A stretch of 55,997 nt of DNA from positions 1 through 55,997 of the forward strand of contig JBHPGK010000003.1 of assembly GCA_042570605.1 (NCBI GenBank), in the 5' to 3' direction. The position numbers and the translations under genes were made by a program. The DNA comes from Candidatus Zhuqueibacterota bacterium. Lineage in GTDB: Bacteria; SM23-31; JBHPGK01. Position 1 is the stretch's first letter. Each line of letters opens with the position of its first letter. The notes below the pieces were generated by a model. The model did not search any database and was not told the origin of the DNA. It saw only the letters and a program-made list of their open reading frames with translations. Shown here piece by piece: positions 5,141 to 19,701 of this stretch.

Positions 5141-5166
5141 GGATTCCCGTTTTCAAGGGAATGACA
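5141..5166 (+). repeat. Solitary dRS3/REP-like palindrome GGATTCCC-N8-GGGAATGACA
   Basis: Same core as the copies at 14290 and in the 17031-18383 array. Confidence 0.75.
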
Positions 5167-14153: not shown

Positions 14154-14990
14154 CTCTCGCAGAGACGCAGAGTACGCTGAGAATATTTGTAGGGAAACGG
14201 CTGTTTGCCCTTTTTTAATACCACAGAGTCGTCATTGTGAGCGCAGCGAATCAATCTCATGGCATTAAGAATTCATTGTGTGTATGGTAGGAGATTCCCA
14301 TTTTCATGGGAATGACACGGAAGTGGAACTGTCATTGCGAGGAGTTCTTATCCCGGTTTACCGGGATAAGAACGACGTGGCAATCTCACTGTTTGAAATA
14401 ATCAACCGCAGAGGCGCAGAGGCACAGAGAATATTTGTAGGGGAGCGTGTCCCGATCCCGCCCGTTTGTATTATTATTCCTTCCGCTGAATCATCTCTTT
14501 ACTTCGTAGCTTATGGATTGCTTCGTCAGTTCCTTCGCTTCACTCAGGACAAGCCTCGCAATGACAAAAGAAAGTGTCATTGTGAGCGCAGCGAATCCAT
14601 CTCATGGCATTAAGAATTCATTGTGTGTATGGTAGGAGACTCCCATGAAAGTGCGTGTTGCACAACAGCAAGAATGTCACCCTGAACTTGGTTCAGGGTC
14701 TCCAAAGCAAAAGATAAGATTCTGAAACAAGTTCAGAATGACAGTTTTGAGCCTTCAACTTTTTCAAAAAAGAGTTGTGCAACACACACTTTCATGGGAA
14801 TGACACGGAAGTGGAACTGTCATTGGCAGGAGCGAAGCGACAGCCTGTCCCGAAACCTCGGGGAAGCAATCTACCTCCACGAAGTACATACACTCCATAA
14901 GATTCCCATAATTAAACGCCCCCTGGTACTCGGGGGGACGCGGTGATACCCAATACTCCCCTATATCGTTTTGCGCCATGCGCTATACTC
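14154..14990. repeat. Intergenic REP mosaic with a 71-nt direct repeat and a nested insertion
   Basis: 14231-14301 repeats at 14576-14646 (2 mismatches); several GTCATTG..GCAATCT and ATTCCC-N8-GGGAATGAC palindromes; 26-nt inverted repeat 14641-14666 / 14774-14799. Confidence 0.8.
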
Positions 14991-15962: not shown

Positions 15963-16973
15963 TTGAAGGTCCTGATCGTTCAGACTGCCTTTCTCGGTGA
16001 TGTAATTCTCACTATACCATTGATAAGGGCACTGAAAAAACATATCAAACCGGTGCATCTTCATATCCTTCTCCGCCCGGAAGCTGAAGATGTCTATAGG
16101 AACGATAAAGATATCGATAATATTATAGTTTATGATAAAAAGAACTCTGAAAAAGGTATTCAGCATTTATTTAAGCTGATAAAAAAGGTAAGAGCTGAAA
16201 AATACGAATTAGTAATTTCACCGCACAGGTCGGTGCGTTCTGCTCTGATATCCTATTTATCCGGGGCAAAACAAAGAGTGGGATTCGATAAGAATTCAAT
16301 GAGTATTTTATATAATAAGAAAGTCAAATATATTAACGATAAGCATGAGGTTGAGCGTAATTTAAGCCTTATAGAACCTATTTATGACGGGGAGATCAGT
16401 ATAACGCTGAATATGCAGAATTCAGAAAATGACCGTAAAAAAGCGGATGAATTGATCTCAAATACCGTGAGAGCTGCCGGGCAGGACATCGTGTGTATGG
16501 CACCGGGTTCCGAATGGAGTACAAAAAGATGGCTAACGGAATATTACAGGAAGCTTATTAAATTGTGCAGTTTATCTGATATAAAAGTCGTGCTGTTAGG
16601 GGGTAGTAAGGACAAAAATATCTGCGGTAATATCTCGATCGGATTTGAAAATGTGACAGATCTAAGTGCGAAATTATCCGTTAATGAATCATCGGAGGTA
16701 ATGAAACAATGTAAGCTTCTTGTGTGCAATGATACGGGTGCAATGCACATCGGTTCGGCTTCCGGTATAGATATTATCACTGTATTTGGCCCTACAGTCC
16801 CTGAATTTGGATTTTCCCCTTTTGGTGTGAAAAATAAGATATTACAGTCGGATATTTACTGCCGTCCATGCAGCATTCATGGCGGGGAGAACTGCCCGGA
16901 AGGGCATTTTTTGTGTATGAGGAGTATTACCCCGGATGATGTTATGCAAGAGATCAGGAGATTTTTGAATTAA
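15963..16973 (+). CDS. waaF: GT9 LPS heptosyltransferase II-like
   Basis: QTAFLGDVIL, APGSEWSTKRW, CNDTGAMH, FGPT, CRPC..CP..HFLCM. Confidence 0.8.
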   Translation: MKVLIVQTAFLGDVILTIPLIRALKKHIKPVHLHILLRPEAEDVYRNDKDIDNIIVYDKKNSEKGIQHLFKLIKKVRAEKYELVISPHRSVRSALISYLSGAKQRVGFDKNSMSILYNKKVKYINDKHEVERNLSLIEPIYDGEISITLNMQNSENDRKKADELISNTVRAAGQDIVCMAPGSEWSTKRWLTEYYRKLIKLCSLSDIKVVLLGGSKDKNICGNISIGFENVTDLSAKLSVNESSEVMKQCKLLVCNDTGAMHIGSASGIDIITVFGPTVPEFGFSPFGVKNKILQSDIYCRPCSIHGGENCPEGHFLCMRSITPDDVMQEIRRFLN

Positions 16974-17030
16974 TATTATGTTCCAATTTATTATTTAGAA
17001 AATAAGCAGTAAACATGGGATTGTTCCAAA

Positions 17031-18383
17031 AGTAGAAGGAGTGCCTTGACAGGAGATTCCCGCTTTCGCGGGAATGACACTTAAGGGGTTTATGGGAATG
17101 ATGCTTTTGAGGTTTATGGGAATGATGCATTTGAGGTTTATGGCGGATGACACTTAAGGGGTTTATGGGAATGATGCATTTGAGGTTTATGGCGGATGAT
17201 ATTTTAGGTGTTCAGGCGGGATGATTGGATTCCAATGGGTAAACCGGTAGTGTAATGATACTTATGTATTTGTTATAAAATGATGAGATTCCCGCTGTGG
17301 CAGGAGATTCCCGATCGAGCCGGGAATGACACTTAAGGGGTTTATAGGAATGATGCATTTGAGGTTTATGGCGGATGATATTTTAGGGGTTCAGGCGGGA
17401 TGATACTATCCAGGTGTGTCATTCCCGACTTGATCGGGAATCTCATAGCATTAACCTGTCGTTATTTATGATAAAAAAGTACTACATTTACATAATGTCC
17501 AATAAAAAAGATGGCACTTTGTACATCGGAATCACCAATGATTTAAAGCGGAGAGTTTACGAGCATAAAGATGGAAAAATAAAAGGTTTTACAAAGAGAT
17601 ACAACCTTGATAAATTAATTTATTTTGAAGAATTCAAAAATATTGATGAAGCGATTATAAGAGAAAAGATGTTGAAAAGATGGAACAGGACATGGAAAAC
17701 CGAATTGCTTGAGAAGTCTAATCCTGATTGGAAGGATTTGTATGATGATTTGTTTTGAAATGATAGGATTTCACCTGATAAACGTGTAGTGGAAGGAGTG
17801 CCTTGACAGGAGATTCCCGCTTTCGCGGGAATGACACTTTAGGGGTTTATGGGAATGATGCTTTTGAGGTTTATGGGAATGATGCTTTAGGTGTTCAGGC
17901 GGGATGATTGGATTCCAATGGGTAAACCGGTAGTGTAATGATACTTATGTATTTGTTATAAAATGATGAGATTCCCGCTGTGGTAGGAGATTCCCGCTTT
18001 CGCGGGAATGACACTTAAGGGGTTTATGGCGGATGATATTTTAGGTGTTCAGGCGGGATGATTGGATTCCAATGGGTAAACCGGTAGTGTAATGATACTT
18101 ATGTATTTGTTATAAAATGATGAGATTCCCGCTGTGGTAGGAGATTCCCGATCGAGCCGGGAATGACACTTAAGGGGTTTATGGCGGATGATATTTTAGG
18201 TGTTCAGGCGGGATGATTGGATTCCAATGGGTAAACCGGTAGTGTAATGATACTTATGTATTTGTTATAAAATGATGAGATTCCCACTGTGGTAGGAGAT
18301 TCCCGACTTGATCGGGAATCTCATGGCATTAACCTGTTTTTATTTATGATAAAAAAGTACTACATTTACATAATGTCCAACAA
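17031..18383 (+). repeat. Hierarchical repeat array (dRS3/REP-like palindromes, 24-25 nt subrepeats, ~154 nt higher-order units) around a GIY-YIG gene
   Basis: GGAGATTCCC-N8/9-GGGAAT starting at 17052, 17303, 17809, 17986, 18140, 18295, plus an inverted copy at 17416-17444; intervening blocks are near-identical. Confidence 0.92.
17468..17758 (+). CDS. Small stand-alone GIY-YIG nuclease (96 aa)
   Basis: YYIYIM..TLYIGITNDLKRRVYEH..REKMLKRW..NPDWKDL; start ATG 17468 (the longer ORF 5' end is translated repeat). Confidence 0.92.
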   Translation: MIKKYYIYIMSNKKDGTLYIGITNDLKRRVYEHKDGKIKGFTKRYNLDKLIYFEEFKNIDEAIIREKMLKRWNRTWKTELLEKSNPDWKDLYDDLF

Positions 18384-18414
18384 ATCAAAATGTAAAAAGT
18401 TAATTAAACAGTAA
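18346..18414 (+). pseudogene. Truncated second copy of the GIY-YIG gene
   Basis: MIKKYYIYIMSNK (13 codons) identical to 17468 copy, then unrelated sequence and a stop 2 nt before the tsaC ATG. Confidence 0.85.
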
Positions 18415-18415
18415 A

Positions 18416-19060
18416 ATGAACACAATTAAATTAGACAGTACAAATACCGGTGAAATTGTTTCCGAAAGTATAAAGGTGCTCTCAGAAGGCGGTGTAATTG
18501 TATACCCCACTGAGACCGCTTATGGATTAGGTGCTGATATTTATAACCGTAAAGCAGTATTCAGGATATATGAGATTAAGGAAAGACCGGGATCGATGCC
18601 CTTATCCGTTATAATTTCCGATAAAAAGATGGCGGAAAGCATCTGCGGAAATATTACACCGTTAACTGCCAAAATAATCGAACATTTTATGCCGGGACCC
18701 TTAACGCTGATCCTTGATGCAGGGCATAAACTGCCCGAATACATGGCTTCAGATGACGGAACGGCAGCTTTCCGTATTCCCGGGAATTTATTTTGCTTAA
18801 AGATGCTGAAGGAATTCGGCAAACCTGTTACTGCTACAAGTGCCAATTTATCCGGAGAACCTGAAGCGCGAAAGATACAGGATATAAACAAAAAAGTTCT
18901 TTCCAAAGCCGACCTCGTAATTGACGCCGGTGAAATAAAATCAGAATCTGTTTCTACGGTGGTCAAATTCAATGGAATTGACTATGATATACTTAGGGAA
19001 GGGGCAGTGAAAAAGAGTGATATTATTAATTTTATACAAGAATTGAATATTGAAAAATAG
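18416..19060 (+). CDS. tsaC: L-threonylcarbamoyladenylate synthase (TsaC/Sua5/YrdC)
   Basis: YPTETAYGLG, K-x-R, PGPLT, ATSANLSG, STVV, LREGA. Confidence 0.93.
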   Translation: MNTIKLDSTNTGEIVSESIKVLSEGGVIVYPTETAYGLGADIYNRKAVFRIYEIKERPGSMPLSVIISDKKMAESICGNITPLTAKIIEHFMPGPLTLILDAGHKLPEYMASDDGTAAFRIPGNLFCLKMLKEFGKPVTATSANLSGEPEARKIQDINKKVLSKADLVIDAGEIKSESVSTVVKFNGIDYDILREGAVKKSDIINFIQELNIEK

Positions 19061-19089
19061 AAATTGTATATATAAAACATAAGGCGGGA

Positions 19090-19701
19090 ATGAATTCAAA
19101 AGATGATTCTGAGCGGGAACTGCTAAAAAAAGCGAAGGATGGGGACAGAAATTCCTTTAATATAATTGTCAAAAATTATTATAAGAAGGGATATTCTGTC
19201 GCATATAGATACACGGGAAATGCAAGAGATTCTGAAGACCTGCTCCAGGATGCTTTTTTGAAAGTATTTAAGAACATGGATTCATTTGATCTGGAGAAGG
19301 ATTTCGGCCCGTGGTTCTTTAAAATATTAATTAACGGCTGTATTAACTTTTTACGGAGAAAAAAGTTAAAAAGGGCTCTCTTTTCATTTAAGGAAGATTA
19401 TGAAGAGATCGGTATAGATATTGAGCAGACCAGGGAATATTCAAACAGTGAAAATCCGGAAAAGGATCTTGCAAAGAGTGAATTGAGTATAAAATTATGG
19501 GATGCAATTAATAAACTGCCGGAGAAGCAGAGATCAGCTATTGTTCTTGCAGATATAGAAGGATTTTCATATGAAGAAATTTCAAATATCCTGAAGTGTC
19601 CCATTGGTTCTGTAATGTCAAGGCTGTATTACGGAAGGTTAAAATTAAAGAGTCATCTGAAAAATTATTTTAAAGAAAAAGGGAATATCAATGAGCTGTA
19701 G
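19090..19701 (+). CDS. ECF RNA polymerase sigma factor (RpoE/SigW-like)
   Basis: EDLLQDAFLK (region 2), FGPWFFKI, LPEKQR..GFSYEEI..GSVMSRL (region 4). Confidence 0.92.
   Translation: MNSKDDSERELLKKAKDGDRNSFNIIVKNYYKKGYSVAYRYTGNARDSEDLLQDAFLKVFKNMDSFDLEKDFGPWFFKILINGCINFLRRKKLKRALFSFKEDYEEIGIDIEQTREYSNSENPEKDLAKSELSIKLWDAINKLPEKQRSAIVLADIEGFSYEEISNILKCPIGSVMSRLYYGRLKLKSHLKNYFKEKGNINEL

What the first reader, a model, noticed from the sequence alone, without database searches (positions are those of the whole stretch)
17031..18383. Small GIY-YIG nuclease embedded in its own palindromic repeat array: candidate RAYT/REPIN-like system with a different enzyme
Seen: a 96-aa GIY-YIG gene (17468-17758) with intact YIY/YIG/R/E motifs lies between waaF and tsaC. 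It is surrounded by seven GATTCCC-N8/9-GGGAAT palindromes. Two of them (17304-17332 and 17416-17444) are reverse complements with 2 mismatches and form a REPIN-like fold-back ending 23 nt before the ATG. No transposase or cas gene is present. Known: ATTCCC-N8-GGGAAT is the Neisseria dRS3 core, and REP doublets are normally spread by HUH RAYT transposases encoded amid their repeats. Inference: this GIY-YIG protein may recognise or nick the hairpins and drive their spread, or use repeat-derived RNA/ssDNA.
Basis: partly seen in the sequence, partly recalled or inferred. Interest (0 to 1): 0.82.

Follow-up and report, generated by a model that had tools for sequence, protein, structure and literature searches.

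The report
Ssn-type GIY-YIG nuclease with hairpin repeats
The small nuclease gene and the palindromes around it are real and belong together, but they are a new example of the Ssn nuclease and hairpin-repeat system described in Neisseria in 2025, not a new kind of system.

Summary
A 96-aa GIY-YIG ORF (17468-17758) lies between a heptosyltransferase gene and a tsaC-like gene, among seven ATTCCC-N8/9-GGGAAT palindromes.

The pairing is not chance. In the same 3.6-Mb genome, 10 of 13 paralogues are bracketed by inverted hairpins of the form (T/C)GTC-AT..stem-loop..AT-CCA/CTC. Of 102 homologues from many phyla, 48 have perfect hairpins on both sides, against 2 of 324 control windows.

It is already in print. 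The hairpins are the 'CGTC-tagged REPs' of Di Nocera 2013 (Neisseria dRS3 included). Chenal et al. 2025 showed that 94-aa GIY-YIG 'Ssn' proteins flanked by these repeats bind the hairpin as single-stranded DNA and cut just upstream.

The window protein is 46% identical to the 94-codon frame at an NTS-rich N. gonorrhoeae locus. It keeps the residues aligned to Y6, Y17 and E64.

Whether Ssn spreads the repeats is still open. My data lean towards a mobile unit: paralogue homology ends at the hairpins, gene-less doublets exist, and Winogradskyella has occupied and empty sites.

Verdict: new member of a known kind, moderate interest.

The parts
17052..17079 (-). SRM/NTS-like hairpin (TGTC-ATTCCCGC-GAAA-GCGGGAAT-CTCC); solo right-end type next to the stop of the heptosyltransferase gene
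   Evidence: Matches the published Neisseria NTS consensus at 25 of 28 positions. Folds as ssDNA at -9 kcal/mol, z -5.4. Tag and orientation.
17087..17200 (.). 24-nt minisatellite (4.7 copies); each unit repeats the 3' arm of the hairpin plus a tag-like GGGAATGA
   Evidence: Tandem Repeats Finder; sequence.
17304..17332 (-). SRM hairpin (GTC-ATTCCCGGCTCGATCGGGAAT-CTCC); forms the 83-nt-spaced inverted pair with the next hairpin
   Evidence: Inverted repeat I2, 29 nt, 93% complementary. Weaker fold, -5.8 kcal/mol, z -1.9.
17416..17444 (+). SRM hairpin at the left end of the gene unit (GTC-ATTCCCGA-CTTGA-TCGGGAAT-CTCA), ending 23 nt before the ATG
   Evidence: ssDNA fold -8.5 kcal/mol, z -3.8.
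17468..17758 (+). ssn-like gene: 96-aa single-domain GIY-YIG nuclease
   Evidence: Pfam PF01541 E 3.3e-18. 46% identical (E 6e-36) to the 94-codon frame at the N. gonorrhoeae NTS locus, with Y8, Y19 and E66 aligned to Y6, Y17 and E64.
17809..17836 (-). SRM/NTS-like hairpin at the right end of the gene unit, starting 50 nt after the stop codon
   Evidence: NTS consensus at 25 of 28 positions; fold z -5.5.
17868..18319 (.). 155-nt tandem array (2.9 copies, 95% matches); each unit carries one SRM
   Evidence: family D1.
17986..18013 (-). SRM/NTS-like hairpin inside the array
18141..18169 (-). SRM hairpin inside the array (same type as 17304-17332)
18299..18319 (.). Palindrome of the left-end type without the GTC tag on either strand (GAG..CTC extends the stem)
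   Evidence: Absent from the tagged list. Strongest fold, -13.1 kcal/mol.
18346..18384 (+). Truncated second copy of the gene (first 13 codons), then unrelated sequence up to the tsaC-like start at 18416
   Evidence: Direct repeat D4: 17421-17506 against 18299-18384, 95%; sequence.
14676..14742 (.). Gene-less SRM doublet (two inverted hairpins, 19-nt spacer) elsewhere in the window
14294..14316 (-). Solo SRM hairpin
5143..5165 (-). Solo SRM hairpin (1 stem mismatch)

Best explanation
The ORF is a member of the Ssn family of small single-domain GIY-YIG nucleases. The palindromes are its cognate Ssn-related motifs (SRM). These are the same repeat class as Neisseria NTS/dRS3 and the 'CGTC-tagged REPs'.

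Inferred from the experiments on homologues: when one DNA strand is exposed, the SRM folds into an 8-bp hairpin. The protein binds that hairpin, reading the stem sequence and the C just after it. It then cuts the same strand a few nucleotides 5' of the (T/C)GTC tag. It should not act on duplex DNA or on RNA.

The locus is one SRM-ssn-SRM unit (about 17416-17836). Around it lies a cluster of further SRMs made by local duplication: a 155-nt array, a 24-nt minisatellite and a truncated second gene copy.

Shown here: family membership by sequence, the gene-hairpin association, and the extragenic dispersal of the hairpins. Inferred: the biochemistry of this particular protein and its role in this organism.
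For: - Domain and size. Pfam GIY-YIG E 3.3e-18 over residues 4-77 of 96, with no other domain.
- Homology. tblastn E 4e-25 to a Neisseria gonorrhoeae record. BLASTP gives 46% identity, E 6e-36, to the 94-codon frame there. Window Y8, Y19 and E66 align with positions 6, 17 and 64, the residues whose mutation abolished cutting in SsnA. That Neisseria locus holds 11 NTS matches in 3.3 kb.
- Repeats in the window. The published NTS consensus hits the window 3 times at 25 of 28 positions, with 0 expected. All 7 palindromes keep the C after the stem, and 6 keep the GTC tag.
- Same genome. 10 of 13 paralogues are bracketed by inverted tagged hairpins. There are 217 GTCAT-tagged perfect hairpins, against 0-17 for six control 5-mers. 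Only 21 of 212 strict hairpins lie inside ORFs of at least 100 aa, although such ORFs cover 87% of the genome.
- Other genomes. Of 102 homologues with full flanks, 68 have a perfect hairpin upstream, 62 downstream and 48 on both sides. Shifted control windows give 40, 28 and 2 of 324. The GTC tag is present at 44 upstream and 39 downstream hairpins, against 1 and 1 in controls. These fractions resemble the published 71% and 42%.
- Genome level. At least 10 tagged hairpins occur in 9 of 13 genomes with a close homologue and in 3 of 28 without (threshold chosen after seeing the data).
Against: - Nothing was tested on this protein itself.
- The window's hairpin tails read CTCC or CTCA, not the Neisseria CYRG, and the tag is TGTC, not CGTC. 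The exact specificity is therefore unknown.
- CDD cd10448, which defines the family in the paper, could not be checked. NCBIfam gave no family above cut-off.
- That the Neisseria frame is ssnA rests on its length, residues and NTS flanks. The record carries no annotation there.
- 34 of 102 homologues lack a perfect upstream hairpin.
- Three genomes hold 13-42 tagged hairpins without a close homologue. One of them (G015) is 100% complete.
Confidence: 0.85

Rival explanations
1. Mobile-element reading, which can coexist with the best explanation. SRM-ssn-SRM is an autonomous IS-like unit, and the gene-less SRM doublets and solo hairpins are its non-autonomous derivatives. Ssn nicking at the hairpins would drive copying of the unit and the repeats, as RAYT is thought to do for REPINs.
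For: - The genome is 67% complete yet holds 13 tblastn matches. Four copies in the hairpin clade are decayed by stops or truncation, and the window holds one more truncated copy.
- Homology between copies at unrelated loci starts 30-45 nt before the ATG and ends 33-52 nt after the stop, which is at the outer edges of the hairpins. Examples: C144a against C144b, 89% over 345 nt; C266 against C69, 79% over 373 nt.
- Eleven doublets with a 19-nt spacer have the same end orientation as the gene-bearing units.
- In Winogradskyella, one site between two conserved genes holds the unit in 2 loci (383 and 459 nt), is empty in 3, and holds other short inserts in 7, among the 12 loci where both flanks were found, out of 20 fetched.
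- Homologues at 51-68% identity occur in many phyla.
- Hairpin class follows the protein tree: 24 changes against 32.5 +/- 1.1 in shuffles, with 0 of 1000 shuffles as low.
Against: - No pair of near-identical copies was found; the best pair is 89% identical, so there is no sign of recent movement in this genome.
- No target-site duplication was seen.
- The two cleavable strands at the unit's ends are opposite strands, unlike IS200/IS605 where both ends are cut on one strand, so no known transposition chemistry fits.
- GIY-YIG enzymes cut but are not known to join DNA.
- Presence and absence at one site can also arise by deletion between hairpins.
- The tree test is confounded by kinship and GC content.
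- Orphan hairpins exist without the gene.
Confidence: 0.35
2. Domesticated host function. Ssn acts as an ssDNA restriction or recombination modulator that trims incoming or exposed single strands at SRMs, as shown for natural transformation in N. meningitidis. The repeats are kept for that role.
For: - An ssnA knockout raised transformation 5-fold only for NTS-bearing DNA (paper).
- In this window the SRM cluster sits among cell-envelope genes for LPS and lipid A. The paper notes NTS clusters near surface-related genes.
Against: - Many diverged paralogues, each with its own hairpin subfamily, and several decayed copies look more like selfish turnover than one host function.
- Competence of this organism is unknown.
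Confidence: 0.3
3. The hairpins are ordinary REPs spread by a Y1 (RAYT/IS200-type) transposase. The GIY-YIG gene is only a passenger, or a homing gene that lands in them.
For: - The genome has 4 Y1_Tnp matches, and 29 of 41 related genomes have some.
- Gene-less doublets could be the primary element into which the gene inserted.
Against: - 0 of 15 Y1 loci examined have GTC-AT hairpins within 500 nt. Several of them carry other hairpin types instead.
- No dRS3-type palindrome lies near the 4 own-genome Y1 genes.
- Y1 presence does not track hairpin load: 10 of 12 hairpin-rich genomes against 19 of 29 others. G039 (97% complete) has 74 hairpins and the GIY-YIG gene but no Y1 match.
- Di Nocera 2013 likewise found no Y1 gene flanked by CGTC repeats.
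Confidence: 0.07
4. The hairpins are transcription terminators or RNA stability elements with no link to the protein.
For: They are extragenic and sit just after or before genes. Di Nocera 2013 suggests that many REPs act at the RNA level.
Against: - No terminator-like site was found in 16900-18500 (0 found), and the hairpins lack T-runs.
- The orientation-specific conserved tags on both sides of the gene are not explained.
- SsnA binds the DNA form and not RNA.
- Rfam has no match.
Confidence: 0.03

Closest known systems
Ssn family (SsnA of Neisseria meningitidis, cd10448 GIY-YIG_unchar_3) with NTS/SRM repeats; Chenal et al. 2025, Nat Commun 16:2388
   Same: A single-domain GIY-YIG protein of about 95 aa, 46% identical to the Neisseria frame. 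Catalytic residues are aligned. The gene is bracketed by inverted hairpins with the ATTCCC..GGGAAT core, an upstream GTC tag and a C after the stem. The hairpins are dispersed and extragenic.
   Different: The tag is TGTC and the tails CTCC/CTCA, where Neisseria has CGTC and CYRG. This genome holds about 11 paralogues in the hairpin clade with at least four hairpin subfamilies and several decayed copies; the paper's main text does not mention paralogues (supplements not seen). Nothing is known of activity or role in this organism.
CGTC-tagged REP superfamily (Di Nocera et al. 2013, BMC Genomics 14:522); includes Neisseria dRS3 and Rickettsia RPE-4 and RPE-6
   Same: CGTC or TGTC tag, 8-9 bp stem starting with AT, 4-5 nt loop, CCA tail, frequent head-to-head dimers, extragenic location.
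   Different: That paper found no dedicated enzyme. Here, and in Chenal 2025, the repeats flank a GIY-YIG gene. In the window itself the tail is CTC rather than CCA.
RAYT/REPIN (REP-associated HUH Y1 transposases)
   Same: A single small gene flanked by inverted hairpin repeats of the same class that is dispersed genome-wide. There are doublets with conserved spacers. An orienting tetranucleotide tag sits beside the hairpin, and recognition is of ssDNA hairpins.
   Different: The enzyme fold and chemistry differ: GIY-YIG hydrolytic nuclease against HUH tyrosine transposase. The tag is (C/T)GTC rather than GTAG. No strand-joining activity is known.
GIY-YIG homing endonucleases (I-TevI, phage Seg proteins)
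   Same: GIY-YIG catalytic domain; a selfish-looking multi-copy distribution.
   Different: Those carry a separate DNA-binding domain and cut duplex DNA. This protein is the bare domain.
UPF0213 / bacterial Slx1-like small GIY-YIG proteins (PDB 1zg2 BH0048, 1ywl EF2693)
   Same: About 100-aa stand-alone GIY-YIG proteins with detectable sequence similarity (E 1.3e-6 and 1e-4).
   Different: Much more distant than the Neisseria frame. No hairpin association is reported for them (Dunin-Horkawicz 2006, section 11 read).

Membership tests
Ssn nuclease family (Chenal 2025) | Single-domain GIY-YIG protein of about 94-100 aa | tested here: met
   96 aa; PF01541 covers residues 4-77; no other domain above cut-off.
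Ssn nuclease family (Chenal 2025) | Homology to Neisseria SsnA (the paper's criterion is E < 1e-10) | tested here: met
   tblastn E 4e-25 and BLASTP 46% identity, E 6e-36 to the 94-codon frame in an NTS-rich N. gonorrhoeae locus. That this frame is ssnA is inferred from length, residues and flanks, not from annotation.
Ssn nuclease family (Chenal 2025) | Residues equivalent to Y6, Y17 and E64, which are needed for cutting | tested here: met
   Window Y8, Y19 and E66 align with positions 6, 17 and 64 of the Neisseria frame. Mutagenesis data come from the paper.
Ssn nuclease family (Chenal 2025) | Gene flanked on both sides by oriented SRM hairpins | tested here: met
   SRM at 17416-17444 (+) and 17809-17836 (-), with the tags facing outwards.
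Ssn nuclease family (Chenal 2025) | CDD assignment to cd10448 | not testable with these tools
   No CDD library on hand. NCBIfam gave nothing above cut-off.
Ssn nuclease family (Chenal 2025) | Site-specific binding and cutting of ssDNA only, upstream of the hairpin | not testable with these tools
   Needs the purified protein and oligonucleotide substrates.
CGTC-tagged REP superfamily (Di Nocera 2013) | CGTC or TGTC tag, 8-9 bp stem beginning with AT, 4-5 nt loop, short CCA tail | tested here: met
   Window hairpins have a TGTC tag, an 8-bp stem ATTCCCGN and a 4-5 nt loop, but the tail is CTC. Genome-wide, 139 of 350 tails begin with CCA and 117 read CCAG. Across homologues, the stem starts with AT in 47 of 68 upstream and 47 of 62 downstream hairpins.
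RAYT/REPIN system | Enzyme is a HUH Y1 transposase (Pfam Y1_Tnp) | tested here: not met
   The gene is GIY-YIG. The Y1_Tnp matches of the genome lie on other contigs, and no dRS3-type or tagged hairpin was seen beside them.
RAYT/REPIN system | GTAG-tagged REPs | tested here: not met
   The tag is (T/C)GTC.
GIY-YIG homing endonucleases | Separate DNA-binding domain joined to the nuclease domain | tested here: not met
   The 96 aa are all nuclease domain plus a 19-residue tail. TIGR01453 scores 19.9 bits against a cut-off of 56.

The most novel reading that the evidence does not exclude
The SRM-ssn-SRM unit is a self-propagating element of a kind not yet demonstrated: an IS-like unit whose only protein is a GIY-YIG ssDNA nickase. 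Its gene-less hairpin doublets and solo hairpins would be its MITE-like offspring. That would make Ssn the long-missing dedicated enzyme of the whole CGTC-tagged REP superfamily (dRS3, Rickettsia RPE-4 and RPE-6 and others). In this genome several protein and hairpin lineages would co-evolve side by side.
Probability: 0.35. Interest if true: 0.7.

Novelty: new member of a known kind. Interest (0 to 1): 0.33.

Why it matters
The finding independently rediscovers a real and recently published system, so it mainly confirms that the scan can find such things.

This genome is still useful in two ways. First, it holds about a dozen diverged Ssn paralogues, each with its own hairpin subfamily. That is a natural panel of enzyme and site pairs for the specificity work the 2025 paper calls for. 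Second, several patterns bear on the question that paper leaves open, namely whether Ssn spreads its repeats:
- homology between paralogues is bounded by the unit;
- gene-less doublets exist;
- one orthologous site is occupied in some species and empty in others.

It also ties the 2013 'CGTC REPs lack a dedicated transposase' puzzle to Ssn. The held text of the 2025 paper does not make that link: 'Nocera' and 'GTAG' occur 0 times.

Tried and rejected
- Rfam scan of 16500-19000 at E up to 1: no match.
- Sequencing runs: none was listed for window 16300-19100, and no RNA holder was listed. Read laying was therefore not used, and neither expression nor population polymorphism of this locus could be looked at.
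- Empty waaF-tsaC site in relatives: not attempted, because the nearest genomes held are only of the same class.
- NCBIfam: nothing above cut-off.
- Five literature searches combined GIY-YIG with terms such as REP, RAYT, MITE, inverted repeats, hairpin, YhbQ, UPF0213, COG2827 and Slx1-like. They found nothing relevant. Only the search adding 'CGTC' and 'dRS3' found the Ssn paper.
- A search for follow-up papers on SsnA and Ssn from 2024 on listed only that paper among bacterial work (20 of 516 listed).
- Dunin-Horkawicz 2006 (section 11 read) does not mention repeats.
- Terminator reading rejected: 0 terminator-like sites.
- Half-hairpin minisatellites as a general footprint: only a weak excess, 10 of 82 ends outside against 3 of 82 inside.
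- No structure prediction or complex prediction was run, because sequence evidence sufficed.
- The supplements of Chenal 2025 (lists of homologues and SRM counts) were closed. They may already cover multi-copy genomes.
Full report
**Observation.** A 96-aa ORF at 17468-17758 matches Pfam GIY-YIG (E 3.3e-18, residues 4-77). It lies between a family-9 glycosyltransferase (heptosyltransferase) gene and a Sua5/YciO/YrdC (tsaC-like) gene. ATTCCC-N7-10-GGGAAT occurs 9 times in the window against 0.03 expected, and 7 of the 9 lie at 17056-18319. The arms 17304-17332 and 17416-17444 are 93% complementary over 29 nt and 83 nt apart. The second arm ends 23 nt before the ATG. The ORFs that I scanned between 10.5 and 26 kb match housekeeping families or none: lipid A and LPS genes, ECF sigma with anti-sigma and RseB-like genes, radical SAM, PTS EIIA. 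None matches a transposase or cas family.

**Anatomy of the locus.** Six of the seven palindromes carry an orienting GTC just 5' of the stem and a C just 3' of it. One faces the gene from upstream on the + strand (17416-17444). Five are on the - strand (17052-17079, 17304-17332, 17809-17836, 17986-18013, 18141-18169). The gene is therefore bracketed by two hairpins with their tags facing outwards. The seventh palindrome (18299-18319) has no GTC on either strand. The rest of the region is made of duplications:
- 17031-17150 recurs at 17788-17907 (92%);
- a 155-nt unit is repeated 2.9 times (17868-18319);
- a 24-nt minisatellite repeats the 3' arm plus tag (17087-17200);
- 18299-18384 is a 95% copy of 17421-17506, which is the upstream hairpin plus the first 13 codons of the gene. 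This is a truncated second copy that abuts the tsaC-like gene.

As single-stranded DNA the hairpins fold at -5.8 to -13.1 kcal/mol, with z from -1.9 to -5.8. Rfam has no match, and no terminator-like site was found.

**The same genome.** The window is one contig of a 3.63-Mb, 347-contig, 37%-GC assembly that is 67% complete.
- tblastn finds 13 matches to the protein, and four copies in the hairpin clade are decayed by stops or truncation.
- Reading their flanks, 10 of the 13 are bracketed by an upstream TGTCAT-hairpin-ATCCAG or CTC and its reverse complement downstream.
- The stem differs by paralogue group: ATTCCCGA, ATTCCAGC, ATCCTGAA and, in another arrangement, ATTCCGAC. Two distant copies lack such hairpins.
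- Genome-wide there are 82 dRS3-type palindromes on 56 contigs.
- There are 217 GTCAT-tagged perfect hairpins, against 0-17 for six control 5-mers.
- With one stem mismatch allowed there are 350, of which 117 end in CCAG.
- They are extragenic. 21 of 212 strict copies fall inside ORFs of at least 100 aa, although such ORFs cover 87% of the genome.

**Other genomes.**
- The protein has relatives in 23 of 41 genomes searched, including this one.
- In the species collection 220 stretches encode a relative. The best 80 were kept. They are 51-68% identical and come from Ignavibacteria, Patescibacteria, Alphaproteobacteria, Flavobacteriia, Planctomycetota, Chloroflexota and others.
- Of 102 homologues with full 120-nt flanks, 68 have a perfect hairpin (stem of at least 7) upstream, 62 downstream and 48 on both sides. 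In 324 windows shifted within the same loci the counts are 40, 28 and 2.
- The GTC tag is present at 44 upstream and 39 downstream hairpins, against 1 and 1 in the controls.
- The median distances are 21.5 nt to the ATG and 11.5 nt from the stop.
- A tag pattern (GTCATNCC..GGNATCC) occurs at least 10 times in 9 of 13 genomes with a close homologue (E at most 1e-25) and in 3 of 28 without. The reversed-pattern control gives 0-2 per genome. I chose that threshold after seeing the data.
- The three exceptions (G001, G015, G033) have only a different, tRNA-linked GIY-YIG clade or long multi-domain proteins.

**The Y1 transposase rival.** Y1_Tnp matches occur in 29 of 41 genomes and do not track hairpin load. 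G039 is 97% complete, with 74 hairpins and the GIY-YIG gene, but has no Y1 match. None of 15 Y1 loci examined has a GTC-AT hairpin within 500 nt. Several of them carry other hairpin types.

**What is known.**
- Di Nocera et al. 2013 (passages read) defined 'CGTC-tagged REPs'. They have a CGTC tag (often TGTC), an 8-9 bp stem starting with AT, a 4-5 nt loop and a CCA tail. The class includes Neisseria dRS3 and Rickettsia RPE-4 and RPE-6. The paper concluded that they 'apparently lack a dedicated transposase'. The hairpins here fit that description.
- Chenal et al. 2025 (sections 5 parts 1-2, 10 and 12 read) extended dRS3 to the oriented NTS (CGTCATTCCCGCGMAVGCGGGAATCYRG). They found that homologues of a 94-aa GIY-YIG gene, ssnA, are flanked by such motifs: 71% have at least one and 42% have them on both sides.
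- They showed that SsnA binds the NTS only as ssDNA and cuts a few nt upstream. Y6A, Y17A and E64A abolish cutting. The three nt before the stem matter for cutting, and the C after it matters for binding. RNA and duplex DNA are not substrates. Three further homologues each cut near their own motif.
- Their discussion already likens NTS-ssnA-NTS to an insertion sequence and to IS200/IS605 with REPs.

**Membership.** The NTS consensus hits the window three times at 25 of 28 positions, with 0 expected. A tblastn search of PLSDB hit two 2.17-Mb Neisseria gonorrhoeae records at E 4e-25. I read one of them. The 94-codon frame there is 46% identical to the window protein (E 6e-36). Window Y8, Y19 and E66 align to positions 6, 17 and 64. 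That locus holds 11 NTS matches in 3.3 kb. The record has no annotation at that place, so calling the frame ssnA is my inference. CDD cd10448 could not be checked.

**How it most likely works.**
- Shown here: family membership by sequence, the gene-hairpin association, and the dispersed extragenic hairpins.
- Inferred from the homologues: the protein binds the hairpin formed on one exposed strand and cuts that strand just 5' of the TGTC tag.
- With the tags facing outwards, the predicted cuts lie just outside each end of the unit, on opposite strands.
- The untagged copy at 18299 should at most be bound, not cut.
- The role in this organism is unknown.

**Does the unit move?**
- Homology between paralogues at unrelated loci begins 30-45 nt before the ATG and ends 33-52 nt after the stop, at the outer edges of the hairpins. 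C144a against C144b is 89% identical over 345 nt, and C266 against C69 is 79% over 373 nt. C165 against C216 runs on to +82, through a shared spacer.
- The genome holds 11 gene-less doublets with a 19-nt spacer in the same end orientation as the gene-bearing units. It also holds 20 doublets of the opposite orientation with a conserved 32-nt spacer.
- For one site between two conserved genes in the genus Winogradskyella, 20 loci were fetched, and 12 of them contained both flanks. Two hold the hairpin-gene-hairpin unit (459 nt in the query locus, 383 nt in another species). Three are empty, with the flanks abutting. Seven hold other short inserts of 79-147 nt. In the remaining 8 loci only the upstream flank was present.
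- Hairpin class follows the protein tree: 24 changes against 32.5 +/- 1.1 in 1000 shuffles, none as low. Kinship and GC content confound this test.
- Against movement: no near-identical copies, no target duplication, no known joining activity in GIY-YIG enzymes, and orphan hairpins without the gene.

**Verdict.** This is a new member of the Ssn/SRM kind. It is notable for many co-resident paralogue and hairpin pairs and for a locally amplified repeat cluster.

**Limits.** The supplements of the 2025 paper were closed and may already list multi-copy genomes. No sequencing run was listed.

Noticed in passing
L125, L128, L043, L024, L022 (also L126, L127); G000 contig C38: A more distant clade of small GIY-YIG genes (35-45% identical to the window protein) has no tagged hairpins and sits beside tRNA genes instead. 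5 of 7 loci scanned have a tRNA within a few hundred nt. In L125, L126 and L128 the 3' part of the tRNA sequence recurs on the other side of the gene. It looks like a separate, tRNA-targeted selfish lineage.
   Followed up: partly
window 17087-17200; L006, L007, L009, L013, L050, L062, L120: Short tandem repeats of 'hairpin arm plus GAC(A) tag plus about 12 nt' lie just outside hairpin ends. Extra exact half-sites occur outside 10 of 82 ends and inside 3 of 82. This may be a footprint of nick-linked slippage, but it remains unexplained.
   Followed up: partly
G000, 20 contigs (e.g. C4:48374-48451, C46:13131-13208): An 86-nt doublet family: two ATTCCAGC-type hairpins with their tags facing inwards and a conserved, asymmetric 32-nt spacer, found in both orientations. 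The same spacer sequence follows the downstream hairpin of several gene copies.
   Followed up: partly
G015 (100% complete), G033, G001: These genomes hold 42, 13 and 28 tagged hairpins but no close homologue of the nuclease. They may be orphan repeat populations.
   Followed up: partly
L004 (G000:C222), L139 (G015), L140 (G013): Y1 transposase genes are flanked by repeated hairpins of other types, for example GACAGACA..TGTCTGTC and GTCAGACT..AGTCTGAC on both sides in L004. These may be separate RAYT-like systems living alongside the Ssn system.
   Followed up: partly
L146, L147, L154; L148, L160 (Winogradskyella site): The same intergenic site holds unrelated AT-rich inverted-repeat inserts in some species and ACCCTGAA-type tagged hairpins in others. 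Only the upstream flank was found in 8 of 20 loci. It looks like a hot spot for small palindromic inserts.
   Followed up: no
window 17074-17102, 17147-17175, 17326-17354, 17831-17859, 18008-18037, 18163-18192: Six of 11 promoter-like matches use the hairpin tag ATGACA as the first hexamer, with AATGAT or GATGAT 17-18 nt on (5.7 matches expected). This is a consensus match only.
   Followed up: no
G000 contig C144, upstream of the copy at 8133-7855: The upstream hairpin of this copy is split by a nested insert of about 22 nt, and the gene carries one in-frame TAG.
   Followed up: no
L164:1489-1770 (N. gonorrhoeae record): The 94-codon frame aligned to the window protein has no ATG, GTG or TTG at its first codon. 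The ORF lister gives only a 71-aa ORF from an internal TTG. The PLSDB record is a 2.17-Mb replicon labelled as a plasmid.
   Followed up: no
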